A stretch of DNA of 64,000 nucleotides, taken from the NCBI GenBank assembly GCA_021768625.1, contig JAETUM010000004.1, positions 11,738 through 75,737 of the forward strand. The letters run 5' to 3'. The position numbers and the translations under genes were made by a program. This document shows, piece by piece, positions 23,322-62,147 of the stretch (position 1 is the stretch's first letter; every line of letters begins with the position of its first letter). Below the pieces are notes generated by a model. The model searched no databases and was not told the origin of the DNA. It saw nothing but the letters and a program-made list of their open reading frames with translations. The stretch comes from Candidatus Stoquefichus sp. GTDB lineage: Bacteria; Bacillota_I; Bacilli_A; Erysipelotrichales; Coprobacillaceae.

Positions 23322-24008
23322 ATGCTTAAAGAAATAATAAAGCAAGAGAGAAAGATGAATACTAGACCAGTATATAAGACGATTGATATTGATGATATCA
23401 TTGCCAATGAATTAAATAATAAAAATCGAATAAGAAATATTGATTATTTAAAAGAAAATATAAAGTGTTGTGGACTTTTAAAACCATTAGAAGTATATGA
23501 TAACTATGATGGAACTTTCACTTTGATTGGTGGAGAAAGACGTTACACAGCATTAAGAAGTTTAGTGGATGAAGATGAATATGATCCAGAAATTCCTTGT
23601 TTGGTTCATGGTGTTAAAGATAAAGCTGAAGAACTGATAAAATTACATATGTCAAATGCTCAGGAGGAAATGAGTGAGGAAGATAAAATAATCATTACAA
23701 AAGATTTGATAAATGTATTGAAAACAAAACCAGAGTTAAAACCTTCAGGAACTGATCTAAGAGATTGGATAGCTACCTTTCTAGGTTGCAAAGGAAGAAC
23801 AGCACAAAAATATATTAACATTGTTAAAGGTGTGGAGCCAAAGAAAAAAGAAAAGGATACAACAGATTATAGTTATGCTACAACGTTATTAAGAGATAGA
23901 CTTAGAACTAAAGTTAAAATCAACAATGGCAAAGTTGCCATCTATTTCAATAACATTGATGATTTAAATAATATACTTAATGAAATGGGTATGATGGAAG
24001 ATGTTTAA
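23322..24008 (+). CDS. parB: ParB/KorB/Spo0J-like protein (ParB N-terminal domain)
   Basis: LKPLEVYD...FTLIGGERRYTALRSL matches the ParB GERR (CTP-binding) box. C-terminal ...NNGKVAIYFNNIDDLNNILNEMG resembles Spo0J/Noc C-termini. An alternative start at M12 (23355) is possible. Confidence 0.75.
   Translation: MLKEIIKQERKMNTRPVYKTIDIDDIIANELNNKNRIRNIDYLKENIKCCGLLKPLEVYDNYDGTFTLIGGERRYTALRSLVDEDEYDPEIPCLVHGVKDKAEELIKLHMSNAQEEMSEEDKIIITKDLINVLKTKPELKPSGTDLRDWIATFLGCKGRTAQKYINIVKGVEPKKKEKDTTDYSYATTLLRDRLRTKVKINNGKVAIYFNNIDDLNNILNEMGMMEDV
23926..23941. repeat. element palindrome copy (ATGGCAAAGTTGCCAT) inside the parB-like CDS
   Basis: Perfect 7+2+7 palindrome encoding NGKVAI near the 3' end of the parB-like gene. 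Confidence 0.9.
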
Positions 24009-24029
24009 TAAATAAAATGTGAAAGTAAA

Positions 24030-24215
24030 ATGAAAGAAATCAAAAAGGAAATATCGAAAATGAAAAAAATGAAAATATATGGGACTTATAAAAACAAAAA
24101 AGTAAGTAGAAATGTTTATAGTAAGGTTCAAGCGTATGCGACCATTAATCAAATGATCCAAGATGGTGTTACAGATATAAGTTGTAACTTTGATGAATTG
24201 GAGAAGTTATCATAA
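24030..24215 (+). CDS. small basic hypothetical protein
   Basis: 61-aa ORF directly downstream of parB. No motif recognised. Confidence 0.4.
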   Translation: MKEIKKEISKMKKMKIYGTYKNKKVSRNVYSKVQAYATINQMIQDGVTDISCNFDELEKLS

Positions 24216-24350
24216 GCTTAAAGAGGAGTGGGAAGCCGAACCTAACAAATTATATTATGTTTTAAAGATATTGAATATTTTAGGGGTTAAAAATATTGTA
24301 CTAGGTACGTATTAATTAAGCTATTCTTATAAGAAAGGAGTATGCAAAGT

Positions 24351-24452
24351 ATGAGTTATTTAAATGCTATTAATAAAATAATAAGATATGAATGCGGATG
24401 CCCTAAATGTGGATATAAATTTATAATTGATGAAGTGGATTGGGAGGGATGA
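24351..24452 (+). CDS. 33-aa zinc-ribbon-like micro-protein
   Basis: AAAGGAG SD 10 nt upstream. Sequence MSYLNAINKIIRYECGCPKCGYKFIIDEVDWEG (CxC-x2-C). Below the ORF-track length cutoff. Confidence 0.35.
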   Translation: MSYLNAINKIIRYECGCPKCGYKFIIDEVDWEG

Positions 24453-24455
24453 AGA

Positions 24456-24701
24456 ATGACAGAAGAAGCAAAAATGCAGTATATGGCAAATGGAATTATA
24501 TTAGCATGTGAGATATTAATAATGAACTCGTTTTATGCTGATAGCTATAAAACTATTAATAATGTGTCTAAAATAATTAGTGAATCAGACGTAACAAAGG
24601 AAGAGTGGAATAATTGTGAGGATGATTTTGCAAAAGAAAAAATTATTGAATTGTTTGAAAATGAAGAAGAATTTTATCAGAAGGTTGGTTGGATTAAATG
24701 A
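24456..24701 (+). CDS. hypothetical acidic protein
   Basis: 81-aa ORF with GGGAGGG SD. No motif recognised. Confidence 0.5.
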   Translation: MTEEAKMQYMANGIILACEILIMNSFYADSYKTINNVSKIISESDVTKEEWNNCEDDFAKEKIIELFENEEEFYQKVGWIK

Positions 24702-24799
24702 GTTTAGAAAGGAATATGATATTAAAAATATCAGTTAATGAACATGGGAACTTAGAGGGTGAAACTATTGCAGTAAAAAATATGGAACCAAAATTATAA
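24698..24799 (+). CDS. 33-aa hypothetical protein, translationally coupled
   Basis: ATGA start/stop overlap with the upstream gene. MSLERNMILKISVNEHGNLEGETIAVKNMEPKL. Confidence 0.3.
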   Translation: MSLERNMILKISVNEHGNLEGETIAVKNMEPKL

Positions 24800-24802: not shown

Positions 24803-24865
24803 GGCTGCCGTTCCATTCAATGGACAAATACACAAAAAGGCAAACTTGCCGACGGTATCCTTCCC
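24803..24865 (+). promoter_or_regulatory. conserved ~60-nt leader motif, copy A (upstream of the SSB operon)
   Basis: GCTGCCGTTCCATTCAATGGACAAATACACAAAAAGGCAAACTTGCCGACGGTATCCTTCCC. Shares the blocks CCGTT, CAATGGACAA, ACAAAAAGG, CCGACGG and TAYCCYTT with copy B. Outer helix TGCCGT/ACGGTA. Inner hairpin GGCAA-AC-TTGCC (24839-24850) is a core copy of the element palindrome. Confidence 0.5.
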
Positions 24866-25993: not shown

Positions 25994-26203
25994 ATGGAAG
26001 ATAATTTTGATATTTCAAAATATCTTGGTAACAACAAGATTTATTCTAAAGACCATCCTAAAAAGTATAACGAGGATGAAGATATTTATGGACCAGCATT
26101 AGTTCCTGAAGATGTTTTATCAGGACAAAGAGAATGGAAATTAACAGGTGATATTAATGATCCTAGAAACAAAGAAGGTATTTTTTATTTAGAAGAGGAG
26201 TAA
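25994..26203 (+). CDS. hypothetical protein
   Basis: 69-aa ORF with GAGGAAGG SD. No motif recognised. Confidence 0.5.
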   Translation: MEDNFDISKYLGNNKIYSKDHPKKYNEDEDIYGPALVPEDVLSGQREWKLTGDINDPRNKEGIFYLEEE

Positions 26204-26236: not shown

Positions 26237-26674
26237 ATGTGTAAAATAGGAGATATTATATTAATTGAAAAATTTAAAAATGAGCATGGAAAGGATGTAG
26301 GAATGCATCCTTTTATTGTTTTGAGTACAAAGAAGGGTGTTATTGAGTCAATGCCTTTAGATATGATAGCAGTATTATTGAGTTCAATAAAAGATGAAAA
26401 GAACAGAAAAAGGAACTTATCATATGAAGTTAATTATGAAGTGAAAAAAGAAGCTGGCTTAAAAAAGGATAGTTTTGTAAAAGGAAATCAAGTATATTGT
26501 TTTGATAGTAATAAAAGCGATTATAGACGAGTAGGTAGTATTGATGTGGATATATTCATGGAAATAAGAGAACATGTAAAAATGATGTTATTACAAGGTA
26601 AAGCTCAAATTATTACAACAAATCTAGAATTGGAAGATGATTCCAAAGAATTAGAAAATGAAATGAGTTTATAG
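26237..26674 (+). CDS. PemK/MazF-fold (SH3-like barrel) toxin-like protein
   Basis: MCKIGDIILIEKF...G.HPFIVLS...IAVLLSS...GLKKDSFVKGNQVYCFD...RVGSIDVDIF parallels the MazF pattern GD(I/V)..V.F....G.E....RP.(L/V)VLS...(I/V)..P(I/L)(T/S)S...S.V...Q(I/V).T(I/V)D. The 40-aa acidic C-terminal tail is atypical. Confidence 0.5.
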   Translation: MCKIGDIILIEKFKNEHGKDVGMHPFIVLSTKKGVIESMPLDMIAVLLSSIKDEKNRKRNLSYEVNYEVKKEAGLKKDSFVKGNQVYCFDSNKSDYRRVGSIDVDIFMEIREHVKMMLLQGKAQIITTNLELEDDSKELENEMSL

Positions 26675-26675: not shown

Positions 26676-26691
26676 ATGGCAAACTTGCCAT
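26676..26691. repeat. element palindrome copy (ATGGCAAACTTGCCAT)
   Basis: Perfect palindrome 2 nt after the stop at 26674, ending 28 nt upstream of GTG 26720. Confidence 0.9.
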
Positions 26692-27216: not shown

Positions 27217-28182
27217 ATGGGAAACACTTTAACAAAAGAAGAAATATCAGAACGTAGAAAAAAAGTAGCAGCATATCCTATATCTACATTAGCATGTGAC
27301 TTGGGATATTCTTTAAAACCTGCAGGTAAAAATTATATTACTCTTAAAGAACATGATTCGGTTATGATAAAAAAGAGTGATAATACATATCGTCGTTTTA
27401 GTGATGGATCCTGGGGAGATACCCTTTCTTTTTTGATGTGCTTTGGAGAAGAGGCAACAAATAACAAGAAATTTAAAAGTATTAGTTATTCCTTGTTTTA
27501 TCTAGAAAAGAAATTGGGTAAATCAAACAATAATGTTTTTAAACCCCCTGTTAAAAGTCAGCAGCTAAAATCAAAGAAACTTATTTTACCTAAAGCTGAT
27601 GAGGATAATAATCAAGTTATTGATTATCTTACTGAAAGAGGAATATCTAAAAACATAATTGATATGTTTATTGAAAAAAAGCTTCTGTATCAAGAGAAGG
27701 ATTGGAAAAAGAATTGTATATTTGTTTCTTATGAAAATGATAAACCAGTATTTGCGATGAGAAGATCTAGCAATTTTAAATATAAATTTGTACAAGATAT
27801 TGAAGGGTCTGATTATAGTCGAGGTTTTTTTATAAATAACAATAGTGATACTTTAGTTGTAACTGAAGCGTGCATTGAAACTATGTCATTGATGACTTTA
27901 AAAGAAAGTGATTTTGGAGAGTTTAACAGATCATCTTTTTTCTGTATGAACAGTATATATAAAAGTGATGGGCTTATTAATACATTAAAATCTTATAAAA
28001 AAATAAATCTTGTTATTTTAGCTTTAAATAATGATGAGATGGGAAGAAAGGCTACAGAAAGAATAAAGCAACTTATTCATGAAAAGGTAAAAAATATAAC
28101 GGTTTGGATTAAACTTCCAAAAGAAGAAGGATTTGATTGGAATGACACACTATGTAAATTAAAGAAGGAGATAAAAGTATGA
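27217..28182 (+). CDS. DUF3991 + Toprim domain protein (conjugative primase/topoisomerase-like)
   Basis: N-terminal ...GKNYITLKEHDSVMIKKSDNTYRRFSDGSWGDTLSFLM matches the DUF3991 pattern. The Toprim acidic residues are in VVTEACIETMSL and ALNNDEMGRKA. Confidence 0.7.
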   Translation: MGNTLTKEEISERRKKVAAYPISTLACDLGYSLKPAGKNYITLKEHDSVMIKKSDNTYRRFSDGSWGDTLSFLMCFGEEATNNKKFKSISYSLFYLEKKLGKSNNNVFKPPVKSQQLKSKKLILPKADEDNNQVIDYLTERGISKNIIDMFIEKKLLYQEKDWKKNCIFVSYENDKPVFAMRRSSNFKYKFVQDIEGSDYSRGFFINNNSDTLVVTEACIETMSLMTLKESDFGEFNRSSFFCMNSIYKSDGLINTLKSYKKINLVILALNNDEMGRKATERIKQLIHEKVKNITVWIKLPKEEGFDWNDTLCKLKKEIKV

Positions 28183-28529
28183 AAATTGCTATGATAAAGA
28201 TAAAAAATGGTATAAGAAAAAATATACGAAAAAATCAAAAAGAATATACGTTTATTTGTCCTCTTAATGGAATTTCTGTTGGTGATTATGTAGTGTGTGA
28301 TGTTAATGCTAATAGTAAGGATATTAGAGAACTCAATTTTAAAGTTGGAAGAGTTGAAAGTCTTATTGAAGACAAGAATGAAATCAAGAAAATATTAGAA
28401 CAACAAAAACCATATTCTTATATTGTATGTAAAGTAGGAGTTAAAGACTTTGAAAAAAGGTGTAATCAAATTCAAGAGTTAAAGTCTGCAAGAATGAATA
28501 AATATCATTTGATGGCTCAAAAAAAATAG
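28179..28529 (+). CDS. hypothetical protein
   Basis: 116-aa ORF with a 4-nt overlap (ATGA) with the Toprim gene. Confidence 0.55.
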   Translation: MKIAMIKIKNGIRKNIRKNQKEYTFICPLNGISVGDYVVCDVNANSKDIRELNFKVGRVESLIEDKNEIKKILEQQKPYSYIVCKVGVKDFEKRCNQIQELKSARMNKYHLMAQKK

Positions 28530-28532: not shown

Positions 28533-28548
28533 ATGGCAACCTTGCCAT
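28533..28548. repeat. element palindrome copy (ATGGCAACCTTGCCAT)
   Basis: Perfect 7+2+7 palindrome with AAA/TTTT flanks, 4 nt after the stop at 28529. Confidence 0.9.
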
Positions 28549-28652: not shown

Positions 28653-28835
28653 ATGAAAAGATTAATAATTAATGAAAATAAAAGTGCATTTGAATTTAGA
28701 CGAATAGTCAATTTTAGAGCAAATGAATTAATTAAAAATGGTTATATTCTTATTAGAATTAGATATAAATTAGATAAAAAAACAAATAGATACAAACACG
28801 CTGTTATTGAGTATAAAGCTAGGACAGTCTATTAA
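28653..28835 (+). CDS. small basic hypothetical protein
   Basis: 60-aa ORF with AAAGGAAAAAG SD-like stretch. No motif recognised. Confidence 0.4.
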   Translation: MKRLIINENKSAFEFRRIVNFRANELIKNGYILIRIRYKLDKKTNRYKHAVIEYKARTVY

Positions 28836-29542: not shown

Positions 29543-30181
29543 ATGAAAAAAATAGTATTAATAGTCATTTGTTTATTTTTAATAAGCTGCAATCACAACG
29601 AAAATTCTACTAGTGAACAAGAAATCAAACAACAAAATAGCATTGAAAAAACAATGATTTTGGAGGATGAATTTATAATGAGTTCTAATATTGGTTTAGA
29701 TTTCAATTATCCATCTCCTTCATTAAAATATTGGAATATGAATGGTCCAGACAATAATGACTGTACTTGTTTTACAAATAAGAAAAATGGTTCAAGAATT
29801 TATGTTTTAAAAAACATAGATTCTCAATTAAGTAGTAATAAAAATTTTAAATATAATCTTAATGGAAAAGATATACCTAAATATTTAGATCAGCAATTAA
29901 AAAAATATGCTGGATTTGAATATACGGATATAGAGATTGATAAAGACTACACTAAATATGAAACAAATATAAAATTTTATAACTGTTTTGGTGCAGTAAA
30001 GGATAAAGGAAAAGTATCTTATGTTTCAATGGCTTTTTTTCAAAGTCAATTCTATATCCCTGAAGTATATGGAATAGAAGCACCTTGTGTAATATTAATA
30101 TTATATGAAGATGAGAATTTGAAAGATGAAGTTAATGAAATGTTGAAAAAATTGAAAAATGGAATTTATTATCCAAAATGA
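29543..30181 (+). CDS. lipoprotein, unknown function (entry-exclusion candidate)
   Basis: Lipobox LFLISC at residues 11-16 after a basic n-region. AAGGAG SD. Confidence 0.6.
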   Translation: MKKIVLIVICLFLISCNHNENSTSEQEIKQQNSIEKTMILEDEFIMSSNIGLDFNYPSPSLKYWNMNGPDNNDCTCFTNKKNGSRIYVLKNIDSQLSSNKNFKYNLNGKDIPKYLDQQLKKYAGFEYTDIEIDKDYTKYETNIKFYNCFGAVKDKGKVSYVSMAFFQSQFYIPEVYGIEAPCVILILYEDENLKDEVNEMLKKLKNGIYYPK

Positions 30182-30196: not shown

Positions 30197-30212
30197 ATGG
30201 CAAACTTGCCAT
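30197..30212. repeat. element palindrome copy (ATGGCAAACTTGCCAT)
   Basis: Perfect palindrome with AAAA/TTTTTT flanks, ending 30 nt upstream of the micro-ORF ATG at 30243. Confidence 0.9.
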
Positions 30213-44176: not shown

Positions 44177-44192
44177 ATGGCAAACTTGCCAT
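44177..44192. repeat. element palindrome copy (ATGGCAAACTTGCCAT)
   Basis: Perfect palindrome with AAAA/TT flanks, ending 17 nt upstream of ATG 44210. Confidence 0.9.
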
Positions 44193-47516: not shown

Positions 47517-47532
47517 ATGGCAAGTTTGCCAT
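47517..47532. repeat. element palindrome copy (ATGGCAAGTTTGCCAT)
   Basis: Perfect palindrome with AAA/TTT flanks, ending 17 nt upstream of ATG 47550. The centre GT is the reverse complement of the common AC. Confidence 0.9.
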
Positions 47533-48999: not shown

Positions 49000-49132
49000 T
49001 TATGAATTGCTTGAAACTGAGTATCAGGCTCTAAAAGATAAATATGAAAAAGTATTAAAAGAAAATAAAGAATTATCAAAAGAACTTCATCATGAAAAAG
49101 ATGATTTTGAAATGATGATGTAAAGAGTAATG

Positions 49133-49166
49133 AAACAGGTTGGAATAACGACCTGTTTTCTTTTTG
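49133..49166 (+). terminator. intrinsic terminator upstream of the T4SS core operon
   Basis: Stem AAACAGGT / ACCTGTTT, 10-nt loop, TTCTTTTT. Confidence 0.75.
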
Positions 49167-49184: not shown

Positions 49185-49200
49185 ATGGCAAACTTGCCAT
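49185..49200. repeat. element palindrome copy (ATGGCAAACTTGCCAT)
   Basis: Perfect palindrome with AAAA/TTTT flanks. It follows a separate, unrelated terminator by 19 nt and ends 19 nt upstream of ATG 49220. Confidence 0.9.
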
Positions 49201-53663: not shown

Positions 53664-53727
53664 AGAAGGTGATAGTATTTCTAAGACGAACAAAAGTTAT
53701 AGAGTAACTGATAACTTCATAAAAAAA

Positions 53728-53949: not shown

Positions 53950-53976
53950 TCTATCTGGCAGAATTGCCAGATAGAT
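53949..53976. repeat. variant palindrome (ATCTATCTGGCA-GAAT-TGCCAGATAGAT) sharing the TGGCA...TGCCA core
   Basis: 12-bp perfect arms. Starts at the last base of the stop codon at 53947-53949. Confidence 0.8.
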
Positions 53977-54006
53977 ACATGAAAAAAATAGGAGGTGTTT
54001 AAGAAG

Positions 54007-55041: not shown

Positions 55042-55051
55042 TTTATATAAA

Positions 55052-55067
55052 ATGGCAATATTGCCAT
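55052..55067. repeat. element palindrome copy (ATGGCAATATTGCCAT)
   Basis: Perfect 16-bp palindrome with AAA/TTTT flanks, 11 nt after the TIR gene stop. Confidence 0.9.
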
Positions 55068-55147
55068 TTTTGCTTTAACCAATAGCAAGTAAAATAAAAT
55101 TGGCAGGTTCTATAAGTTGTAATAACGTCAACTAAAAACTGTTTTGA

Positions 55148-55173
55148 GGATCTCATTAAAGAGATCCTTTTTT
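55148..55173 (+). terminator. intrinsic terminator immediately upstream of the SD of the ToxN-like gene
   Basis: Stem GGATCTC / GAGATCC, loop ATTAAA, T6. AAGGAGG SD follows directly. Confidence 0.65.
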
Positions 55174-55184
55174 AAGGAGGAAAT

Positions 55185-56000
55185 ATGAAACAGTTAGAAC
55201 TATTAGATGTTCCAGAATCTGCTATGGAAATTTTACAATCAAAAGGTTTTTGTATAAGTAGTAAAGAAGATAAGTTTATTGTTACTTATAATTGCTCTAA
55301 AGAAACATTGAAATTTAAAAATAAAAAAGAAATTTCATTTTGGGTTAATAATTACTTATATTATTATTTCACTTATGAAAAATATAATTTATTTATAAAT
55401 AATAAATTAAACCTGGATGATTGTTTAAAGTATTATAAAAATGTTGTTGATTTTAATCGATATGTTAATAATGATGAATTAAATCATCTTATAGATGAGA
55501 TAGAAGTATATATATCTAAAATAATAAATGATTATCAAAAAGAAATTAATAAGCGTATAAGAATTGAACCATTTTATTTTTATTTATTAGATGAAGAAAT
55601 TTATAACAAAGATTATCCAAAATTGTATCCTAAGAAAAGTACAAGGCCTTTTCTTTTGTATAAAAAAGAATTGGACAGTAATATTCTTTGGTTGATACCA
55701 ATATCTAGAGCACCAAACAAGAAGTATGAAAAACTTCTTAGCAATGAGAAAAAAGCTATTATAAAATATTCAATTGTGAAAACAAGTTGTTATATTTTAA
55801 TTCAAAATATAATTCCTATAAATGAAAAGTATATTAAATCAAGGTTTTTATATAATGGTATTCACATACATATTAAGAATAAAGAAGTAATGAGAAATAT
55901 TCATAAGAAAGCAGAGAGAACTCTTGCTATGATTAAATACGATAAATATTATTTTTCTAGCGAGATAAAAAAGATGTATTTATCTCAAAGTGAAAAGTAA
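55185..56000 (+). CDS. protein with C-terminal ToxN/AbiQ-like (type III toxin endoribonuclease-like) domain and ~130-aa N-terminal extension
   Basis: Residues ~130-270 (FYFYLLDEEIYNKDYPKLYPKKSTRPFLLYKKELDSNILWLIPISRAPNKKYEKLL...CYILIQNIIPINEKYI) parallel the remembered ToxN/AbiQ layout (FYTIS.KYI.YL...KAFIGIVLEI....YLAPLTSPKK...LINLKFMIPI.E). Pattern match by eye only. Confidence 0.4.
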   Translation: MKQLELLDVPESAMEILQSKGFCISSKEDKFIVTYNCSKETLKFKNKKEISFWVNNYLYYYFTYEKYNLFINNKLNLDDCLKYYKNVVDFNRYVNNDELNHLIDEIEVYISKIINDYQKEINKRIRIEPFYFYLLDEEIYNKDYPKLYPKKSTRPFLLYKKELDSNILWLIPISRAPNKKYEKLLSNEKKAIIKYSIVKTSCYILIQNIIPINEKYIKSRFLYNGIHIHIKNKEVMRNIHKKAERTLAMIKYDKYYFSSEIKKMYLSQSEK

Positions 56001-56009
56001 ATTATAGAA

Positions 56010-56025
56010 ATGGCAAAGTTGCCAT
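56010..56025. repeat. element palindrome copy (ATGGCAAAGTTGCCAT)
   Basis: Perfect palindrome ending 24 nt upstream of ATG 56050. Confidence 0.9.
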
Positions 56026-56049
56026 TTTTTATATAAGGAGAAATTTAAA

Positions 56050-57213
56050 ATGAAAATTGGAACATTTAGATTTGCAGAATACGGAAAACAAGCTCCTAAA
56101 AATTCACGTTTTAAAGGAACTATAGATACAGAATCTTTACTAGGGTGGAGTGAATATACTGATAGAGAGGAAGCTAAGGATCATGAGAAGGAATTGAATA
56201 AGAGAGATGATGGTTTTTTTGGGTATACTCAATCTCATACTCTAGAAAAAACAATGAGTTCAATTGGATTTATAGAACATGGTGAAAACGAAAAAAGAAA
56301 AGAGTTTAGAAAAATGATTGCAGCATCATTTCATAAGAAAGGAAATCTCTTTTTTGATACTGTTATTAGTGTTGAGAATTTTGCGGAATTAGAAGAGTGT
56401 GGAATTCGTTCTGTAGAAGATTGGAATATTATTGTCAATAATGCAATGAAGAAATTTATTAAAACATTGGATTTGGATTATCAAAATATTATCTGGTGGG
56501 CTGACTCACATAATAATACAGAAAATCCACATATACATCTTACATTCTTAGAAAAAGAACAAACAAGAACTAGAGGGAAAATAACACCAGAACAATTAGC
56601 AGCGTTCAAAAGATATTTCTTTACAGAAATATCTGCACGAAAAAAATTAGAGAAAGAATTTAAGAAACCATATCAAGAGGTTTTTAAAGATAAAGATATC
56701 CAATTTAAGGAAATCCTTAATAATGCAGATAATGTTTTATCAAAGAATAAAGTAACTCTTAACAATTTATATAGATATTTACCAAAACAAGGAAGATTAC
56801 AATATAACTCATATAACTTTAAACCTTATAGACATTATATTGATGATATTATTAATGATATTATTTTAAAAGATAAAGATGTACAAAAATCACTTGATAA
56901 ATGGATGAATACATTAGAAATGTTTGAACAGATTATTAATGACAATGCTCATGATATAGCTACAATCAAAGAAGCTGAAATGAAAAAGTTGTATGAACAG
57001 ATTGGAAATAAAATATTAAAGTATTACAAAAAATCAAATTATATTGAGGTAATTAAAAAGGGAAAGAATGGTAAGACATATCATAAGCTCATTAAAAAAA
57101 GAAAAATCACAAGAAATAGTCTTGCTTATGATATAAGTAGATCAGCTGAAAATGAAAGTTATAGATTAGAATTAGAGATAGAGGAGTTTTTAAGAGCATA
57201 TCACTTAAGTTAA
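56050..57213 (+). CDS. conjugative relaxase (MobL-like, His-triad relaxase domain)
   Basis: N-terminal relaxase fold with the HxDxxxPHxH-type metal motif WWADSHNNTENPHIHLTF. Size and basic helical C-terminus are consistent with Firmicutes MobL (pLS20 Rel-type) relaxases. The family assignment is tentative. Confidence 0.7.
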   Translation: MKIGTFRFAEYGKQAPKNSRFKGTIDTESLLGWSEYTDREEAKDHEKELNKRDDGFFGYTQSHTLEKTMSSIGFIEHGENEKRKEFRKMIAASFHKKGNLFFDTVISVENFAELEECGIRSVEDWNIIVNNAMKKFIKTLDLDYQNIIWWADSHNNTENPHIHLTFLEKEQTRTRGKITPEQLAAFKRYFFTEISARKKLEKEFKKPYQEVFKDKDIQFKEILNNADNVLSKNKVTLNNLYRYLPKQGRLQYNSYNFKPYRHYIDDIINDIILKDKDVQKSLDKWMNTLEMFEQIINDNAHDIATIKEAEMKKLYEQIGNKILKYYKKSNYIEVIKKGKNGKTYHKLIKKRKITRNSLAYDISRSAENESYRLELEIEEFLRAYHLS

Positions 57214-57217
57214 TTAT

Positions 57218-57233
57218 ATGGCAAGTTTGCCAT
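57218..57233. repeat. element palindrome copy (ATGGCAAGTTTGCCAT)
   Basis: Perfect palindrome 5 nt after the relaxase stop, ending 24 nt upstream of ATG 57258. Confidence 0.9.
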
Positions 57234-57257
57234 TTTTAGAGATAAGGAGGATAAACT

Positions 57258-58061
57258 ATGAGAAAAAGTAATATTGAATTTGGATATTTTCAAATTAAAA
57301 ATGATGAACATTTATATTTATTGGAAAGTCAAGGTAGCAAAAATATAACTATCTCAAAAACATATGATCAGGTTTCTAATGAAAAAAATGATAAATATGA
57401 ATGGAATGGTCAGTACGATATTGATTATGATGGAATAACAGATATTTATTGTTATATAGATTATGTTGATGATAAAGTAAGTATTGAATTTGTTGAAGGT
57501 TATTCCATTCATGGTTCATCAAGTTCGTATGAGTTGGATTTTGAAAATGACAAATCAACTATAGATTGGATAATTAACAAGGTTACAAAAAATGAAGAAT
57601 TTATTTCTTTTTGTGACACAATAGATAAAATCAACAAGTTGGAAGAAAAGTTATTATTAGAATCTTCTGGAGAAGAGTCAAAATTAAAGTTTTTAGAATA
57701 CACTGAAGGCAAAATAGAACCACTTGGGAAAATCATGATTAATGATGATAATAAGCTAGTTAATGATGCTAAAGAAGAACATACTGATTATAATGTGATA
57801 ATGACAGGAAGAATTCGAGATTATGGCTTATGTAAAATATTAGATAATTCTATAAATGGTGGGGAATCACTGTTATTGGTTACAGAGGAAAATAACATAT
57901 TAGATAACCCAATGATAGATGCCACAATATATACTGCAAGAATGGAATTTGATAAAATTGATCCAGCTTATGTTCAACTGGTTTTAGAATATTGGAATGA
58001 ATGTGGTATGGAATCATTAATACAAGAAGAAAATGAATTAGAAAATTCATTGATTTTATAA
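57258..58061 (+). CDS. acidic hypothetical protein
   Basis: 267 aa, D/E-rich. AAGGAGG SD. Lies between the relaxase and coupling protein genes. Confidence 0.6.
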   Translation: MRKSNIEFGYFQIKNDEHLYLLESQGSKNITISKTYDQVSNEKNDKYEWNGQYDIDYDGITDIYCYIDYVDDKVSIEFVEGYSIHGSSSSYELDFENDKSTIDWIINKVTKNEEFISFCDTIDKINKLEEKLLLESSGEESKLKFLEYTEGKIEPLGKIMINDDNKLVNDAKEEHTDYNVIMTGRIRDYGLCKILDNSINGGESLLLVTEENNILDNPMIDATIYTARMEFDKIDPAYVQLVLEYWNECGMESLIQEENELENSLIL

Positions 58062-58083
58062 CAAACTATCTATATTAAACAAC

Positions 58084-58099
58084 ATGGCAAACTTGCCAT
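58084..58099. repeat. element palindrome copy (ATGGCAAACTTGCCAT; arms extend to 14 bp, 58077-58106)
   Basis: AAACAACATGGCAA-AC-TTGCCATGTTGTTT. Confidence 0.9.
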
Positions 58100-58128
58100 G
58101 TTGTTTTATTTAAAGAATGGAGAAATTT

Positions 58129-60147
58129 ATGAAGAAGTTAACACAGATTATTATTGCTACTATTATATCAATGGTTTTGATATATTTTCTTGGAATTCAA
58201 TTTATAAATATGTGGGTTTATAAAAAATTTAATATAAGTTATGACTATTCATTGTTATTTTTTAGGGGAAATTTATATTTCTTAATATTAACCTTTCTTT
58301 CTACTATACCAGCATGGTGTATATTTTTTAATGATATTTTTAGAAAGAAAATAAAATATAACAATTCTTACAGTACAATGCAAAGTCAGAGGGATATAAA
58401 AAAGAATCTAATTCTTATTCATTTTAATAGAAATGGACTTTATATAACTCCTTTAGATAAAATAAAAATACTAAAAAATGAGATGAAATTGAATTTGGAA
58501 AAAAGTTTTTATAATTTTTATTTAAATAATGAATCCTTATATTGGTTGCATTTACAAGATATAAAATTTAAAAAAATGAAAAAATATAAGGTCGGAGATG
58601 AAGAAACCTATTTTAGAACAGGATTACCAATAATTACTAAGACAGGAAAAATATGGTGTGATCCAACAGACAGTCATTCTTTGATTGTTGGAACAACTAA
58701 TTCTGGTAAAACATTTAGTATTATACTTATACTTATTCAATTAACACGTTTAGCAAAGCAATCCGCTGTTATAGTTGATGTTAAAGGGGAGTTATCAAGG
58801 ATGACTGCTCAAGATTTTATAAATGATGGCTATACAACATATTTTATTGACTTTATAACACCTGAAAGTAGTGATTGTTGGAATCCATTACATTTAGCAG
58901 CCATTGAATGGAAAAAAGAGAATGAAAGAATTGAAAAAGAAAAAGCGAGAATAGTGGAATTACTAAATGAGAAAGAAAAGATACATCATTTACATTATGG
59001 TGATAGTATACCATTTGATCCATATAAAGCTATAGGAAACAATGAGAATGGCGATCCTTTAATTAACCCAGTAACTGGAGAAATTTTAACATATCCAGAT
59101 TATTCAAAAGCAAGTGAATATATTATAGATGTATGTAATTCGATTTGCGATGATCCAACCGCAAAGGAAAAGGTATGGAATAATATGGCTAGTAGGTTAA
59201 TGAGAGGTATTATCTACTTATTAATGGAAGAGGGAAATGAAGAATTTATCAATTTTGAATCAGTAAAAAGGATTTTGGATTTAGGAGATTTGCCTATTCC
59301 TGGTACTAAAAGTACTTACTTAAAAGAATATGTATATAAATACAGAAAAGCAGGTGATTTATCTTATGAAACACTAAGTGAATATTTAGAAGCTCCAGCG
59401 ACAACTAAAAACTCTATTAAGAGTGTTTTTGGTGAAAGGATTGATGCAATAATTTTATCTCAACAGATTAAGAATATGACAGCTAAAAATGATATAGACT
59501 TTGAAAATATTGGCAATAAAAAAACAGTTATATTTTTAAAGGTACATGATGAAAAATCAACATATTATCCTTTGGTTAATTTATTTATGAGACAATTTTG
59601 TGAGGTGCAGATAAAATTAGCAAGAAAAAATCCTAAAGAAAGATTAAGAGTACCAATCGATATTATTTGGGATGAGTTTGGAAATTCACCAACATATGAA
59701 GGAATAAAAAACCTTTTGACAGCAGGAAGATCAAGAGGTATTAGAGTGACAATGGTTATACAAGGATATGACCAATTAAATGAAAAGTATGGGGATAATG
59801 GAGCTAAAACAATAAAAAACAACTGTATGAATACAGTTTATCTATTAAGTGGAGACAATATGACATTGAAAGAGATAAGTGATAGATGTGGTACCAAGAA
59901 AGTTTATAGAAATGGAAAAGAAGAAAATGAACCAGTTTTTACAATTGACAGATTGTCTCACTTTAAATTAGGAGAAGCATTGTTTTTAAGACAGAGGGAA
60001 AATCCTTTTTTCACAAAACTAAAAGCCTATGATAAATATAGAATTTATAAAAGAGAAGCAAATTATGTAGGACAGCCAAAACCTAAGCCTATAGCAAAAG
60101 GCTGGGATATAAAAAAAGCATATGCTTTTAAACAATTTAAAAAGTAA
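58129..60147 (+). CDS. type IV coupling protein (VirD4/TraG/PcfC-like)
   Basis: Two N-terminal TM helices. Walker A VGTTNSGKT, Walker B IIWDEFGN. ATG 58129 is preferred (GGAGA SD 5 nt upstream) over 58117. Confidence 0.85.
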   Translation: MKKLTQIIIATIISMVLIYFLGIQFINMWVYKKFNISYDYSLLFFRGNLYFLILTFLSTIPAWCIFFNDIFRKKIKYNNSYSTMQSQRDIKKNLILIHFNRNGLYITPLDKIKILKNEMKLNLEKSFYNFYLNNESLYWLHLQDIKFKKMKKYKVGDEETYFRTGLPIITKTGKIWCDPTDSHSLIVGTTNSGKTFSIILILIQLTRLAKQSAVIVDVKGELSRMTAQDFINDGYTTYFIDFITPESSDCWNPLHLAAIEWKKENERIEKEKARIVELLNEKEKIHHLHYGDSIPFDPYKAIGNNENGDPLINPVTGEILTYPDYSKASEYIIDVCNSICDDPTAKEKVWNNMASRLMRGIIYLLMEEGNEEFINFESVKRILDLGDLPIPGTKSTYLKEYVYKYRKAGDLSYETLSEYLEAPATTKNSIKSVFGERIDAIILSQQIKNMTAKNDIDFENIGNKKTVIFLKVHDEKSTYYPLVNLFMRQFCEVQIKLARKNPKERLRVPIDIIWDEFGNSPTYEGIKNLLTAGRSRGIRVTMVIQGYDQLNEKYGDNGAKTIKNNCMNTVYLLSGDNMTLKEISDRCGTKKVYRNGKEENEPVFTIDRLSHFKLGEALFLRQRENPFFTKLKAYDKYRIYKREANYVGQPKPKPIAKGWDIKKAYAFKQFKK

Positions 60148-60165
60148 CGATATGGAGGAAAAAAC

Positions 60166-61323
60166 ATGATAGAAGAGTTATTGGAGCAGTATAATATAAC
60201 CTATTTAGGTTATCAAAACTTAGATGAGTCAATATTAAAGAAATTAGACAGAACAAAAATACATAGACTAACAAAAGAAAGCAATTGTTTAATTATGGAG
60301 AATTACAGTGAAGAGAAGGATTCTCTTTTTCTTAAAGATTCAATCTTAAAGTCAATGAAGATAAGTAATACTCGAATTAAACAAGCTATATTTATAAATT
60401 GTAAATTTGATGATACTGTTATAGCAGAATCGTCATTTGCGAATGGTATATTTATAAATTGCTATTTTAAATACATTATGTTTGATAAGGTTAATTTAGA
60501 ACACGCAAAAATGGTATATTGCCATTTTGAATCGTGTAGTATGACTAGATGTAAATTAAATTACTCTCATTTTTTTAAGAGTGACTTTGAAAAAATAGAA
60601 ATTGAAAAGGACCATAATCATCCGAAGTTCAGTGAAACAAAGGATATGATTATAGAAAATAGTGTAGATAAAGAAAATATAGAAAAAAAAGAGGTAGAAA
60701 ACATGAAGGCAGATAAAAAAACTAATATTATAGAAAATAAAATTTTTGAAAGTGACTATCAAATTGAAAGTGATATGATTTATAATCATTGTACATTCAA
60801 TGAAACAAATATTGAAAAAATAAATGTGAGTACAGATTTCCAAGATTGTGTCTTTAATAATACAACTTTTAATGGTGAATTTTATAAAGTTGCATTTTCA
60901 TTAAGTAAATTTAATGATTGCATATTTTCGGGCTATTTTTCAAAATGTTTTTTTGATAATTGTAAATTTAATGATACAAATAAGTTTGAAAAAATACATT
61001 TTTTACAATGTGATTTTTCTCGAGCTGATATACCAAATCAAATTATGGATGTTATTAAAGAAAAGTCGTCTTACTCAATCTTTGATGTTGCACCTCATAA
61101 AAAAGAGGATAATGAATTTGAAAATATGATTAAGCCTATATTTGAAAAATTCCAAAAATATAAAATGGAAATTGATGAGTTACAAAATAAAATAATAGAG
61201 AAAAAGGATATTATTGATTATATATCAAAATTAAGTTCTGATGAAAAACTTCAAATTGTTGTTTCTTCTTTAGCTGTTTCTTCTAATAATACTAATACTA
61301 ATAGTAATGATAATGAGATATAA
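60166..61323 (+). CDS. pentapeptide-repeat protein (two repeat blocks) with coiled-coil and N/T/S-rich tail
   Basis: Runs such as FINCKFDDTVIAESSFANGIFINCYFKYIMFDKVNLEHAKMVYCHFESCSMTRCKLNYSHFFKSDF and CTFNETNIEKINVSTDFQDCVFNNTTFNG... follow the A(D/N)LXX-type quadrilateral beta-helix periodicity. Confidence 0.7.
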   Translation: MIEELLEQYNITYLGYQNLDESILKKLDRTKIHRLTKESNCLIMENYSEEKDSLFLKDSILKSMKISNTRIKQAIFINCKFDDTVIAESSFANGIFINCYFKYIMFDKVNLEHAKMVYCHFESCSMTRCKLNYSHFFKSDFEKIEIEKDHNHPKFSETKDMIIENSVDKENIEKKEVENMKADKKTNIIENKIFESDYQIESDMIYNHCTFNETNIEKINVSTDFQDCVFNNTTFNGEFYKVAFSLSKFNDCIFSGYFSKCFFDNCKFNDTNKFEKIHFLQCDFSRADIPNQIMDVIKEKSSYSIFDVAPHKKEDNEFENMIKPIFEKFQKYKMEIDELQNKIIEKKDIIDYISKLSSDEKLQIVVSSLAVSSNNTNTNSNDNEI

Positions 61324-61331
61324 TTGATAGA

Positions 61332-61907
61332 ATGAATTATTTTATAGAAGTGATGGATGGATCTAATTTAACATATTATTTTAGATCCTATTTATTTTCA
61401 AAAGGTTTTAGGTTTAGAAAGAAACAAAAGATATGGCTTTATCAAACACATGACTTAGACTTCATTGGTCAAATTAAATCTTATTGCAAGTCAAATGGAC
61501 TTGTTTGTATTGTTTATACTAGAAATCAGATAAGGAATAGAACATACAGGGAAAACTTTTTTGAGAAAAATCAACCTTTAATAAAGGATTACTATCTATG
61601 TGCATACTGTCTAAAGCCAGTACATAAAAAAAAGATAACTGTAGATCATGTTATTTCTGTAAAAAAAGCAAAAACTAATAAATTGTACCAAAAAATAATG
61701 AAAAAAATGAAAATTAGTAATGTGAATGATGAAAAAAATTTAGTGGCTTGTTGTAGTAGATGTAATCAAAGAAAAGGAAAGAAAGGTGGCTTGTGGGTTG
61801 TAAGAGGTTTTTTAGGCAAACATAAGATATGGCTGTTGTCATGTTATATTTTAATGATATTCTTAATATTTTTAATGATTGTCGTTTTATTCCCAAAAAG
61901 TCATTAA
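61332..61907 (+). CDS. HNH endonuclease with C-terminal transmembrane helix
   Basis: CAYCLKPV...ITVDHVISV...NLVACCSRCNQRKG is an HNH/Cys-box motif. C-terminal IWLLSCYILMIFLIFLMIVVLF is a hydrophobic anchor. Confidence 0.7.
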   Translation: MNYFIEVMDGSNLTYYFRSYLFSKGFRFRKKQKIWLYQTHDLDFIGQIKSYCKSNGLVCIVYTRNQIRNRTYRENFFEKNQPLIKDYYLCAYCLKPVHKKKITVDHVISVKKAKTNKLYQKIMKKMKISNVNDEKNLVACCSRCNQRKGKKGGLWVVRGFLGKHKIWLLSCYILMIFLIFLMIVVLFPKSH

Positions 61908-61948
61908 CATAAAAGTAGATGATAGGATTATGAAGAAAGGGAGTAAAT

Positions 61949-62131
61949 ATGGAATTAACTGAAGAACAAGAGTTTCAAGATGATGTACATGATATTCTCA
62001 GGCATCTTGAAGAAGAAGCGATTTTTATATGTGATAATTCATCAGATAAAATTAATAGACATGTGGAATTAATGCGTATAGGATACTATAAATTATTTAA
62101 TATGCTGAAGTATAATTTAGAAAAGGAGTAA
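61949..62131 (+). CDS. small acidic hypothetical protein
   Basis: 60-aa ORF with AAAGGGAG SD. Confidence 0.45.
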   Translation: MELTEEQEFQDDVHDILRHLEEEAIFICDNSSDKINRHVELMRIGYYKLFNMLKYNLEKE

Positions 62132-62147
62132 ATGGCAATTTTGCCAT
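62132..62147. repeat. element palindrome copy (ATGGCAATTTTGCCAT)
   Basis: Begins immediately after the stop codon at 62129-62131 and ends 31 nt upstream of ATG 62179. Last copy in the window. Confidence 0.9.

What the first reader, a model, noticed from the sequence alone, without database searches (positions are those of the whole stretch)
23926..62147. Element-wide family of 12+2 near-identical palindromes, ATGGCAA-NN-TTGCCAT, including one inside the parB-like gene
Canonical copies lie at 23926, 26676, 28533, 30197, 44177, 47517, 49185, 55052, 56010, 57218, 58084 and 62132. There is a core-only copy at 24839 and a long-armed variant at 53949 (CTGGCA-GAAT-TGCCAG). I found none in the 20 kb of chromosomal flank. 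Both 7-nt arms are invariant and only the central 2 nt vary (AC, CC, GT, AG, AT, TT). Most copies carry A3-4 and T3-6 flanks. All but two sit in the short gap between an upstream stop codon and the next gene, and ten end 17-31 nt before a start codon (counting the preferred starts 54007 and 58129, and the micro-ORFs at 30243 and 44210). Independently evolved intrinsic terminators conserve structure but not sequence. In addition, copy 49185 follows a separate bona fide terminator. This argues for sequence-specific recognition. Hypothesis 1 (favoured): these are parS/OB-like sites for the element's ParB/KorB-like protein. This would parallel the 16-bp palindromic parS inside B. subtilis spo0J and the 12 dispersed KorB operators that globally repress RK2. 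Hypothesis 2: they are RNA hairpins or weak bidirectional terminators punctuating a long conjugation transcript, read through by processive antitermination as described for pLS20. Hypothesis 3: they are conserved module-boundary linkers that allow cassette exchange, since the cargo genes are individually bracketed.
Basis: partly seen in the sequence, partly recalled or inferred. Interest (0 to 1): 0.85.

Follow-up and report, generated by a model that had tools for sequence, protein, structure and literature searches.

The report
Dispersed ParB binding sites on an ICE
The twelve identical 16-bp palindromes scattered over this integrated conjugative element are almost certainly binding sites for the element's own ParB-type DNA clamp, because related elements carry variant palindromes whose bases change in step with amino acids in the DNA-reading helix of their ParB.

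Summary
There are 12 exact ATGGCAA-NN-TTGCCAT copies, all between 23926 and 62147, where shuffles give none. Two degenerate palindromic copies also exist, and the 20-kb chromosomal flank has none.

The element is an integrative conjugative element (ICE) of an Erysipelotrichaceae-like bacterium, inserted next to tRNA-Ser. It encodes ParA, ParB, a MobL relaxase, a type IV secretion system and a tyrosine integrase.

About 40 related elements carry the same kind of palindrome, NN[G/A]G[C/T]AA-NN-TT[G/A]C[C/T]NN, each in its own variant. Half-site base 5 is C in all 21 elements whose ParB has Arg159, and T in all 15 with Lys159. Residue 159 is the only ParB alignment column that separates the two groups. 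The switch arose at least three times, and two predictions made beforehand came true. Base 3 (G to A) tracks Arg147 and Tyr164. All three residues lie in the predicted helix-turn-helix.

Most family sites lack a downstream T-run, show no G·U bias, and some lie inside genes. Terminator or RNA-hairpin readings therefore fail as the primary explanation.

Whether the sites serve partition, element-wide silencing, or both is inferred, not shown. This is a new variant of a known kind, of moderate interest.

The parts
20628..20718 (+). tRNA-Ser(GCT). The element begins just downstream, so this is the likely integration target and left boundary.
   Evidence: All element genes from 20879 onward lie on the + strand. 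The flank at 1-19264 carries teichoic-acid and housekeeping genes.
22271..23128 (+). ParA-type Walker ATPase, the partner of the ParB-like protein
   Evidence: AAA_31 3.9e-40, CbiA, ParA, MipZ
23322..24008 (+). ParB-family protein, 228 aa. It has an N-terminal CTPase-fold domain with GGERRY (the GxxR motif), an HTH (helices 146-154 and 158-169, with Arg147, Arg159 and Tyr164), and a C-terminal dimerisation-like domain. It is the proposed reader of the palindromes.
23926..23941 (.). site 1, ATGGCAAAGTTGCCAT, inside parB (codons N-G-K-V-A-I)
24837..24852 (.). degenerate site AAGGCAAACTTGCCGA (core GGCAA-AC-TTGCC intact). It sits upstream of the 238-aa gene. Relatives have a perfect site at the same position.
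26676..26691 (.). site 2, between the PemK toxin gene and the 164-aa gene that precedes the primase gene
28533..28548 (.). site 3, 3 nt after the stop of gene 28179-28529
30197..30212 (.). site 4, after gene 29543-30181. The position is conserved in L017 and L018.
44177..44192 (.). site 5, upstream of a micro-ORF and the ArdC gene
47517..47532 (.). site 6, between the DNA methylase gene and the PcfM-like gene
49185..49200 (.). site 7, after a separate terminator-like hairpin (49132-49159) and upstream of gene 49220
53955..53970 (.). variant site CTGGCAGAATTGCCAG, embedded in a 12-bp-arm hairpin (53949-53976) upstream of the TIR gene
55052..55067 (.). site 8, after the TIR-domain gene
56010..56025 (.). 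site 9, upstream of the MobL relaxase gene
57218..57233 (.). site 10, after the relaxase gene. Together with site 11 it brackets gene 57258-58061, which is absent from the relative L004.
58084..58099 (.). site 11, upstream of the coupling-protein gene. Here the palindrome extends to 13-bp arms (AACAAC...GTTGTT).
62132..62147 (.). site 12, after the small ORF that follows the HNH gene. The position is conserved in L004.
63521..64000 (+). start of a tyrosine integrase gene that runs off the window, marking the right-hand end of the ICE
   Evidence: L069 is 100% identical to window 53392-64000 and continues into a 351-aa Phage_integrase gene.

Best explanation
The palindromes are the cognate DNA sites, equivalent to parS or KorB operators, of the ParB-family protein encoded at 23322-24008. 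A ParB dimer reads each 16-bp site (really about 20-22 bp) through its helix-turn-helix. Arg159 at the start of the recognition helix reads the C:G pair at half-site position 5. Arg147 and/or Tyr164 read the G at position 3.

By analogy with ParB, KorB and BisD, the sites would act as loading points where CTP-bound ParB closes into a clamp and slides. Twelve loading points over about 40 kb would coat the whole unidirectional conjugation gene array.

I infer two consequences. The first is ParA-driven partition of the excised element. The second is KorB-like damping of transcription across the element, by silencing or roadblock, while it is quiescent. Each related element has its own site variant, matched to its own ParB. 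This would keep co-resident elements from cross-talking.

What is shown: the sites are real and element-specific. They are a conserved family trait. Their sequence co-varies with HTH residues of ParB. The protein has the ParB CTPase fold, an HTH and a C-terminal domain, and sits next to ParA.

What is inferred: physical binding, CTP dependence, sliding, and the biological outcome.
For: 1) The sites are specific to the element. There are 12 exact copies where shuffles give none, and none in the 20-kb chromosomal flank. A phage-like stretch joined to the same element in L069 also has none.

2) The sites are a family trait. Relatives found through the relaxase or through ParB carry ATGGCAA, GTGGCAA, ACGGCAA, TTGGCAA, GTGGTAA, ATGGTAA, AAGGTAA, TCGGTAA, TTAGCAA or GTAGCAA half-sites. 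Each element is uniform within itself. L026 has 7 copies, and L068 has 11 copies in 4.7 kb.

3) Protein and DNA co-vary. Among 36 non-redundant ParB variants with sites, 21 are C-type and 15 are T-type. Residue 159 (R versus K) is the only well-occupied alignment column, out of 226, with disjoint residues between the two types. Lys arose at least 3 times on an Arg background: in L011, in the L013/L029/L065 group, and in the GVCGK clade. The rule was written down, before P0026/L029 and P0025/L065 were examined. Both turned out T-type as predicted.

4) A second signal exists for position 3. The two lineages with A at that position (L068 and L028) are the only ones with Val147 instead of Arg, and Ile or Leu164 instead of Tyr. 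Both residues are otherwise invariant and lie in the HTH.

5) The protein is a ParB. It hits Pfam ParB_N and ParB_C. A profile search hits Spo0J 4umk at 6e-9, Noc, and the Spo0J C-terminal domain 5noc. The AF2 model has pLDDT 87.6. Foldseek matches Noc, CDP- or CTPγS-bound ParB, and KorB. The GGERRY / GxxR motif is invariant. ParA is adjacent.

6) In the sister clade the sites sit as a tandem pair just upstream of parA, the classical position for a centromere or operator.

7) The symmetry is DNA-like. Watson-Crick symmetry extends 2-3 bp beyond the 16-mer with no G·U excess.

8) Established precedents exist. KorB uses 16-bp OB sites and long-range silencing by a CTP clamp (PMC11790492). BisD uses bisS sites on ICEclc and slides over about 50 kb (PMC12409273). 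Residues at the start of the recognition helix set ParB versus Noc specificity (PMC7383237).
Against: No binding experiment exists.

L013, L014 and L057 carry a K159 ParB, yet two C-type TTGGCAA sites lie downstream of parB.

Half-site positions 1-2 differ between elements with no matching ParB column.

A control with the linked ParA also gave one separating column (Ser versus Thr/Gly/Ala). 'A unique column' alone is therefore not proof. The ParB case rests on three things together: convergence on the same residue, its HTH location, and the successful predictions.

The window element has no site upstream of parA.

Three ParB-bearing loci (L020, L025, L067) show no recognisable site in the DNA available.

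Box III of the CTPase motif reads S-N where B. subtilis ParB has E-N. This comparison is from my own knowledge, and CTP hydrolysis may therefore differ.

The strong preference for intercistronic gaps is not itself explained by ParB binding. 78% of 99 sites fall outside ORFs, although ORFs cover about 87% of the element.
Confidence: 0.78

Rival explanations
1. The palindromes are bound by a different element-encoded sequence-specific protein, such as a small HTH or RHH regulator, the relaxase or the HNH protein. On this view the ParB correlation is indirect.
For: Many small ORFs of unknown function remain. A linked control protein, ParA, also shows one column that separates the site types. L013 has C-type sites despite a K159 ParB.
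Against: The ParB signal has four features an indirect link would not predict. The same residue (Arg to Lys) changes convergently three times. It sits at the N-terminus of the predicted recognition helix. It is backed by a second HTH signal for position 3. It passed two prospective tests. In addition, 16-bp palindromes are the canonical ParB substrate, and ParB is present at every locus that has sites and for which the parAB region is available.
Confidence: 0.07
2. The palindromes act as RNA hairpins or weak bidirectional intrinsic terminators that punctuate a long conjugation transcript. They would be read through by a processive antitermination system, as in pLS20.
For: In this window most copies have A3-4 and T3-6 flanks. 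The hairpins fold at -7 to -18 kcal/mol. One search lists 28533 and 30197 and one search lists 62132 as + strand terminator-like; 23926, 28533, 56010 and 62132 are listed on the - strand. The copies sit right after stop codons. pLS20-type operons carry more than 20 internal terminators (PMC8955417), and the relaxase here is MobL, the pLS20 type.
Against: Antitermination bypasses terminators regardless of their sequence (PMC10325885, abstract), so it gives no reason for 12 identical stems. Across the family only 20% of 89 sites have at least 5 T in the 8 nt downstream, and the flanks are instead AAG/CTT, AAC/GTT or AC/GT. There is no G·U bias on the transcribed strand. Some sites lie inside coding regions: parB here, the coupling-protein gene in L004, and the VirB4, relaxase and surface-protein genes in L008. 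A 2-nt centre forces a 4-nt loop with only 6 core pairs. Finally, the arms change in concert with a DNA-binding protein.
Confidence: 0.07
3. The palindromes are module-boundary linkers or recombination patches, loosely like attC sites, that allow cassette exchange between elements.
For: Cargo-like genes are bracketed by sites. The TIR gene lies between 53955 and 55052. Gene 57258-58061 lies between 57218 and 58084, and the relative L004 lacks both the gene and its two sites. L013 switches site type at the parB/ssb boundary, which suggests mosaicism. Uniform flanks within an element suggest that the sites are copied as units.
Against: No recombinase is linked to the sites. Sixteen to 22 bp is short for homologous exchange. 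Sites also flank core genes and sit in conserved positions across elements with different site types. The one junction seen (L069, window 53392) is not at a palindrome. This reading does not explain the co-variation with the ParB HTH.
Confidence: 0.04
4. The palindromes work as hairpins in the transferred single strand. Candidates are priming signals for the DUF3991-Toprim primase, or secondary relaxase or DprA/SSB loading signals.
For: The element encodes a primase, SSB, DprA and a relaxase. A perfect palindrome forms the same hairpin on either strand.
Against: No covariation with any of these proteins was tested or seen. The hairpin would be short (6-7 bp with a 4-nt loop). This reading does not predict site sequences tracking HTH residues of a duplex-DNA binder.
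Confidence: 0.03

Closest known systems
KorB and its OB operators on IncP-1 plasmid RK2
   Same: Both are ParB-family proteins encoded next to a ParA (IncC in RK2) on a conjugative element. Both use a 16-bp palindromic operator present in many dispersed copies across the element, including next to transfer genes. Foldseek matches the KorB structures 8qa8 and 8qa9. The CTP-clamp mechanism and long-range silencing of KorB are documented (PMC11790492).
   Different: The host is Gram-positive (Erysipelotrichales) and the element is integrated. The protein is much smaller (228 aa) and sequence identity to KorB is only 16-17% in the structural alignment. No KorA or TrbA partner has been identified. 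The sites sit in intercistronic gaps of a co-directional gene array rather than at defined distances from promoters. The window element has no site at the parA promoter.
Chromosomal ParB/Spo0J with parS, and Noc with NBS
   Same: The best sequence and structure matches are here (4umk, 7nfu, 7ol9, 6sdk). All share a 16-bp palindrome, the GxxR CTP motif, an HTH and a C-terminal dimerisation domain. In this element one site lies inside parB itself, as in B. subtilis spo0J (that fact is from my own knowledge). Specificity is set by a few residues at or near the recognition helix, as shown for ParB versus Noc (PMC7383237).
   Different: The site sequence is unrelated to TGTTNCACGTGAAACA. The sites are spread over the whole mobile element. 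The in-gene copy is not conserved in relatives. Many natural specificity variants exist within one family.
BisD with bisS on ICEclc (Pseudomonas)
   Same: Both are ParB-like CTP clamps encoded by an ICE. BisD loads at palindromic sites on the ICE and spreads over about 50 kb to control transfer genes (PMC12409273).
   Different: BisD has an extra activator domain, uses only two 23-bp bisS sites, works with BisC, and activates rather than represses. The protein here has a plain ParB architecture and 12 or more sites.
Internal terminators of the pLS20 conjugation operon with conAn antitermination
   Same: Both are Gram-positive conjugation operons of the MobL family with many hairpins between genes (PMC8955417).
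   Different: pLS20 terminators are not sequence-identical and are bypassed regardless of sequence. The sites here are identical within an element, mostly lack U-tracts across the family, and co-vary with ParB.

Membership tests
ParB/parS-type CTP-clamp system (ParB, KorB, Noc, BisD) | N-terminal ParB CTPase fold with the GxxR arginine motif | tested here: met
   Pfam ParB_N. Profile hits to Spo0J and Noc. Foldseek hits to ParB-CDP/CTPγS, Noc and KorB. GGERRY is invariant apart from E/H at the third position.
ParB/parS-type CTP-clamp system (ParB, KorB, Noc, BisD) | Central helix-turn-helix DNA-binding domain | tested here: met
   The AF2 model has helices 146-154 and 158-169 at pLDDT above 90. 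Structural alignment to Noc and ParB covers about 158 columns, including the DNA-binding domain.
ParB/parS-type CTP-clamp system (ParB, KorB, Noc, BisD) | C-terminal dimerisation domain | tested here: inconclusive
   The Pfam ParB_C hit is weak and below cutoff (20.5 bits against 23.8). The hit to the Spo0J C-terminal domain 5noc has E = 2.8e-4. The predicted helix-strand-strand-helix topology fits.
ParB/parS-type CTP-clamp system (ParB, KorB, Noc, BisD) | Cognate palindromic site of about 16 bp on the same replicon | tested here: met
   12 exact 16-bp palindromes. The site sequence co-varies with HTH residues 159, 147 and 164 across 36 ParB variants.
ParB/parS-type CTP-clamp system (ParB, KorB, Noc, BisD) | Specific binding, CTP binding and hydrolysis, clamp closure and sliding | not testable with these tools
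   Needs EMSA or BLI, CTPase assays, crosslinking and ChIP-seq.
ParB/parS-type CTP-clamp system (ParB, KorB, Noc, BisD) | Adjacent ParA ATPase partner | tested here: met
   ParA lies at 22271-23128. ParA is upstream of ParB in every relative that has sequence there.
KorB-type global regulon | Many operators dispersed over the whole element | tested here: met
   12 sites plus 2 degenerate ones over 38 kb. L026 has 7 sites in 6 kb and L068 has 11 in 4.7 kb.
KorB-type global regulon | Operators placed at or upstream of promoters, with repression of those promoters | tested here: inconclusive
   The promoter scan is no better than shuffles in this AT-rich DNA. In clade B the site lies 6-10 bp upstream of a conserved TTTGTAC box before parA.
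KorB-type global regulon | Clamp-locking co-repressor (KorA or TrbA) | not tested
   The scanned ORFs gave no Pfam hit suggesting one. ORFs of 60-70 aa or shorter (for example 24030-24215, 25994-26203, 28653-28835) were not scanned; three other small ORFs (24456-24701, 53728-53949, 61949-62131) were scanned and gave no hit.
Rho-independent terminators | GC-rich stem-loop followed directly by a U-tract, as a conserved feature | tested here: not met
   Only 3 of 12 window copies are called terminator-like on the + strand. Across 89 family sites, only 20% have at least 5 T in 8 nt. Some sites lie inside ORFs.
Genome-wide REP/MITE-like repeats | Similar density across the host chromosome | tested here: inconclusive
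   There are none in the 20-kb flank here and none in the non-element DNA of L069. The rest of the genome is not available.

The most novel reading that the evidence does not exclude
A previously undescribed family of ICEs in Erysipelotrichales uses a small ParB clamp with a dense set of loading sites. These sites are inserted into the intercistronic gaps of a roughly 40-kb one-directional conjugation operon. The result would be an operon-wide silencing or roadblock system doubling as a centromere.

The family also displays a simple natural recognition code: Arg159 or Lys159 pairs with C5 or T5, and Arg147/Tyr164 pair with G3. This code has been rewritten repeatedly, giving at least ten mutually orthogonal ParB/site pairs, probably to avoid incompatibility between co-resident elements.
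Probability: 0.3. Interest if true: 0.7.

Novelty: new variant of a known kind. Interest (0 to 1): 0.55.

Why it matters
KorB-style control of a whole mobile element by a ParB clamp has been worked out only in Gram-negative systems (RK2, ICEclc). This finding offers a Gram-positive, gut-associated counterpart with clear, testable sites.

The family also provides a natural series of ParB and site pairs in which single HTH residues track single bases. That is directly useful for studying how DNA-binding specificity evolves, and for building orthogonal ParB/parS labelling or partition tools.

It is also a caution for annotation. Identical 'terminator-like' hairpins between the genes of a mobile element may be protein-binding sites.

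Tried and rejected
DNA searches of the plasmid and phage collections found only the tRNA.

Rfam found nothing but tRNAs.

The promoter scan was uninformative in 28% GC DNA, with counts equal to shuffles.

I looked for ParB columns that track half-site positions 1 and 2. Only clade markers outside the HTH turned up.

My first ParA control was flawed because it omitted the window, L011, L017 and L065. It gave 15 'separating' columns. I redid it properly and it gave one column, which I report as a caveat.

I tested whether the parB-internal copy is conserved in relatives. It is not.

I tested whether L011's Lys159 came in by recombination from the other T-type clade. Its ParB is window-like throughout the HTH region.

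I checked whether the junction in L069 lies at a palindrome. It does not.

I could not recover the ParB genes of L008 and L009 because the look-ups were exhausted. L008's sites match the GVCGK clade (L024), so it is probably of that type.

Three ParB loci (L020, L025, L067) gave no recognisable site in the DNA available.

Full report
**Observation**

None of 100 dinucleotide-preserving shuffles gave a match.

Allowing mismatches adds almost nothing, so the distribution is all-or-nothing. There is one 2-mismatch hit at 45931 inside dprA, which is not palindromic. There are two 3-mismatch hits that are themselves palindromic and intergenic. These are 24837 (AAGGCAAACTTGCCGA) and 53955 (CTGGCAGAATTGCCAG, inside a 12-bp-arm hairpin at 53949-53976).

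No copy lies in 1-20000. That region encodes teichoic-acid enzymes and ends with tRNA-Lys and tRNA-Ser.

Placement is as described. One copy lies inside the parB-like gene. The others begin 0-22 nt after a stop codon, and most end 17-31 nt before an RBS and start codon. The only slip is that the centre of copy 55052 is TA, not AT.

**What the element is**

From 20879 to the end of the window, all genes lie on the + strand. They encode:

- ParA, a ParB-like protein, SSB, a PemK toxin and a DUF3991-Toprim primase
- an S26/camelysin-like peptidase and a thioester/SpaA adhesin
- ArdC, DprA and an N6/N4 methylase
- a PcfM-like protein, a VirB4-like ATPase and a lysozyme/NlpC-P60 hydrolase
- a TIR protein, a MobL relaxase and a coupling protein
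- a pentapeptide protein, an HNH protein and an Ig-like surface protein

A metagenomic contig that is 100% identical to window 53392-64000 continues into a tyrosine integrase gene. That gene starts at about window position 63521.

This is therefore an integrative conjugative element (ICE) inserted beside tRNA-Ser. The closest named relatives are in Erysipelotrichaceae MAGs. No close DNA relative exists in the plasmid or phage collections.

**The palindrome is a family trait with element-specific variants**

I fetched loci around homologues of the relaxase and of the ParB-like protein. This gave about 40 distinct related elements from Erysipelotrichales, Massilimicrobiota, Thomasclavelia, Fimiplasma and gut metagenomes.

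Almost all carry 16-bp palindromes of the same design, NN[G/A]G[C/T]AA-NN-TT[G/A]C[C/T]NN. Each element has its own version:

| Half-site | Loci | Copies noted |
|---|---|---|
| GTGGCAA | L004, L017, L018 | |
| ACGGCAA | L019, L015, L016 and the large human-gut clade | |
| TTGGCAA | L009 | |
| GTGGTAA | L011, L013, L065 | |
| ATGGTAA | L029 | |
| AAGGTAA | L008, L023, L024 and others | |
| TCGGTAA | L046, L052, L053 | |
| ATGGCAA | L026 | 7 |
| TTAGCAA | L068 | 11 in 4.7 kb, in nearly every intergenic gap (two in the 3' parts of ORFs), with three tandem pairs 34-36 bp apart |
| GTAGCAA | L028 | 5 |

Both arms always change together, and all copies within an element agree. A hairpin with no sequence-specific reader would not behave this way. 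The pattern calls for a dimeric, sequence-specific factor encoded by the element itself.

**Which factor**

The ParB-like protein has the family's invariant GGERRY (GxxR) motif. It also has a segment, W-x3-(F/Y)-(L/I)-G-C-K-G-[R/K]-T-A-Q-K-Y-I-N.

An AlphaFold2 model (mean pLDDT 87.6) places helices at 146-154 and 158-169, forming a helix-turn-helix. It also predicts a C-terminal helix-strand-strand-helix unit.

Foldseek finds Noc, CDP- or CTPγS-bound ParB, and KorB. A profile search of PDB sequences finds Spo0J (4umk, 6e-9), Noc, and the Spo0J C-terminal domain.

At I noticed that the residue before TAQKY is Arg in elements with GGCAA sites and Lys in elements with GGTAA sites. I wrote this down as a prediction for the ParBs not yet examined. 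P0026 (Lys) turned out to sit in L029, with ATGGTAA and GTGGTAA sites. P0025 (Lys) sits in L065, with GTGGTAATATTACCAC. All newly found Arg-type ParBs had C at position 5.

Over 36 non-redundant ParB variants with sites, 21 are C-type and 15 are T-type. Residue 159 is the only one of 226 well-occupied alignment columns whose residues do not overlap between the two groups.

A neighbour-joining tree and pairwise identities show that Lys arose at least three times on an Arg background. The three origins are L011 (sister to the window element), the L013/L029/L065 group, and the GVCGK clade (sister to the ACGGCAA clade). L011's ParB is window-like all through the HTH region, so its Lys is not a recombination import.

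There is a second signal. The only two lineages with A instead of G at half-site position 3 (L068 and L028) are not each other's relatives. They are also the only ones with Val instead of the otherwise invariant Arg147, and Ile or Leu instead of the otherwise invariant Tyr164. Both residues are in the HTH.

Arg pairing with a G-containing base pair, and its loss when the G is lost, is what direct read-out would predict. That step is inference. It is consistent with the ParB/Noc work, where a handful of residues at and around the recognition helix set specificity (PMC7383237).

**Caveats on the covariation**

- The same column test on the linked ParA also returns one separating column. A conserved Ser is replaced by Thr, Gly or Ala in T-type elements. 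A single separating column is therefore not proof by itself. The ParB case is stronger because the same residue recurs, it sits in the recognition helix, a second HTH signal exists, and the predictions held.
- L013, L014 and L057 have a Lys159 ParB but two TTGGCAA sites downstream of parB. I cannot explain this. It may be a mosaic element or a second reader.
- Half-site positions 1 and 2 vary between elements with no matching ParB column.

**Why not terminators or RNA hairpins**

- In this window the flanks are A3-4 and T3-6, and the hairpins fold at -7 to -18 kcal/mol. Even so, the scan calls only three copies terminator-like on the + strand.
- Across 89 non-redundant family sites, the flanks simply extend the palindrome by 2-3 bp. 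Watson-Crick symmetry is 56%, 82% and 46% at the first three flanking pairs, then about 30%, which is background.
- In other elements these flanks read AAG/CTT, AAC/GTT or AC/GT. Only 20% of sites have at least 5 T in the next 8 nt. There is no G·U excess on the transcribed strand.
- Some sites lie well inside coding regions: parB here, the coupling-protein gene in L004, and the VirB4, relaxase and surface-protein genes in L008.
- Processive antitermination of the pLS20 kind bypasses terminators whatever their sequence (PMC10325885, PMC8955417). It therefore gives no reason for identity.
- Some window copies may still pause or stop RNA polymerase as a side effect.

**Placement**

Of 99 non-redundant sites, 78% lie outside + strand ORFs, although ORFs cover about 87% of the element.

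Several positions are conserved between elements with different site variants:

- upstream of the 238-aa gene (degenerate in the window at 24837)
- around the primase gene
- after the orthologue of gene 29543-30181
- after the small ORF that follows the HNH gene

Other positions turn over. L004 has tight 14-15-nt junctions with no site where the window has sites 56010, 57218 and 58084. Window gene 57258-58061, together with its two flanking sites, is missing from L004.

In the sister clade there are only 2-3 sites per 20 kb. These include a tandem pair 32 bp apart just upstream of parA and 6-10 bp before a conserved TTTGTAC box. That is the classical position for a centromere or operator. The window's clade has multiplied the sites along the gene array.

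The in-parB copy exists only in this lineage. Relatives encode KGKATI or NGKAVI there, using other codons.

**How it most likely works**

ParB dimers recognise the sites. By analogy with ParB, KorB and BisD, they bind CTP, close into clamps and slide. This analogy rests on established knowledge (PMC11790492, PMC12409273).

With ParA next door, the complex can serve to partition the excised element. With 12 loading points spread over a 40-kb co-directional array, it could also keep the array quiet, either by KorB-like silencing or as roadblocks. Variation in the site code between related elements would prevent cross-recognition.

Binding is strongly supported but not demonstrated. CTP dependence, sliding and the outcome are all inferred.

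**Comparison with known systems, and novelty**

The design is that of KorB and OB on RK2, and more loosely of BisD and bisS on ICEclc and of chromosomal ParB and Noc.

It differs in several ways:

- the host is Gram-positive
- the protein is small, with a plain ParB architecture and only 16-24% identity to the solved relatives
- no KorA-like partner has been identified
- the sites sit in intercistronic gaps
- there are at least ten natural specificity variants

Literature searches found no description of this family. I rate it a new variant of a known kind, with interest about 0.55.

Noticed in passing
L013, L014 and L057 (one 77-91 kb metagenomic element); sites at L013 2633-10787 versus 11623 and 15047: One element carries two palindrome types. 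GTGGTAA occurs 5 times up to just after parB, then TTGGCAA occurs twice downstream, although its ParB has Lys159, which elsewhere goes with T-type sites. It also carries a second relaxase (PF03432) upstream. This may be a mosaic of two elements, or there may be a second reader protein.
   Followed up: partly
ParA, window 22271-23128 (motif AVASRS-S-M near the C-terminus); alignment of ParA from 35 loci: A conserved Ser in ParA is present in all 20 C-type elements. It is replaced by Thr, Gly or Ala in all 15 T-type elements. This is the only ParA column that separates the two groups. L011 may have a short recombination tract spanning the ParA C-terminus and the ParB N-terminus. The meaning is unknown.
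   Followed up: partly
L069 (Logan SRR13008612_1272), junction at window 53392: A contig 100% identical to window 53392-64000 carries phage tail and baseplate genes upstream instead of the conjugation genes. The junction lies inside ORF 53304-53663 and not at a palindrome. It could be an assembly chimera or a real recombinant. The same contig shows the tyrosine integrase that runs off the window's end.
   Followed up: partly
L068 (Logan SRR26879380_31036, 4.7 kb): This locus has 11 copies of acTTAGCAA-NN-TTGCTAAgt in 4.7 kb, in nearly every intergenic gap around parA and parB (two lie in the 3' parts of ORFs). Three tandem pairs are 34-36 bp apart. It is the densest array seen in the family.
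   Followed up: partly
L015 6601-6700, L021 8926-9010, L024 9000-9040, L046 9010-9050: In the sister clade, the site or sites upstream of parA are followed after 6-10 bp by a conserved TTTGTAC(A/C)TT box. This could be a -35-like element or a second operator.
   Followed up: no
L015 4757-5626, L016 4051-4992: Some relatives encode a second, longer ParB_N-domain protein (289-313 aa) two genes upstream of parA. The window element has none. Its ORF at 20879-21811 corresponds to the gene that lies between the two.
   Followed up: no
window 53995-55041 and 26237-26674: The ICE carries defence or addiction cargo: a TIR-domain protein bracketed by palindromes, and a PemK/MazF-type toxin with a small upstream ORF (25994-26203).
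   Followed up: no
window 57258-58061: A 267-aa gene with no Pfam match sits between the relaxase and coupling-protein genes, flanked by two palindromes. In the 70%-identical relative L004, the gene and both sites are absent and the two core genes are 15 nt apart.
   Followed up: partly
window 20770-20849: Two strong terminator-like hairpins lie directly after tRNA-Ser and before the first element gene. They may be the tRNA terminator and/or part of the attachment site.
   Followed up: no
window 30343-31527 and 38372-41776: The conjugation module includes an S26 signal-peptidase/camelysin-like protein and a 1134-aa thioester-domain adhesin with 8 SpaA repeats. The adhesin recurs in the relatives L013, L015 and L016.
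   Followed up: no
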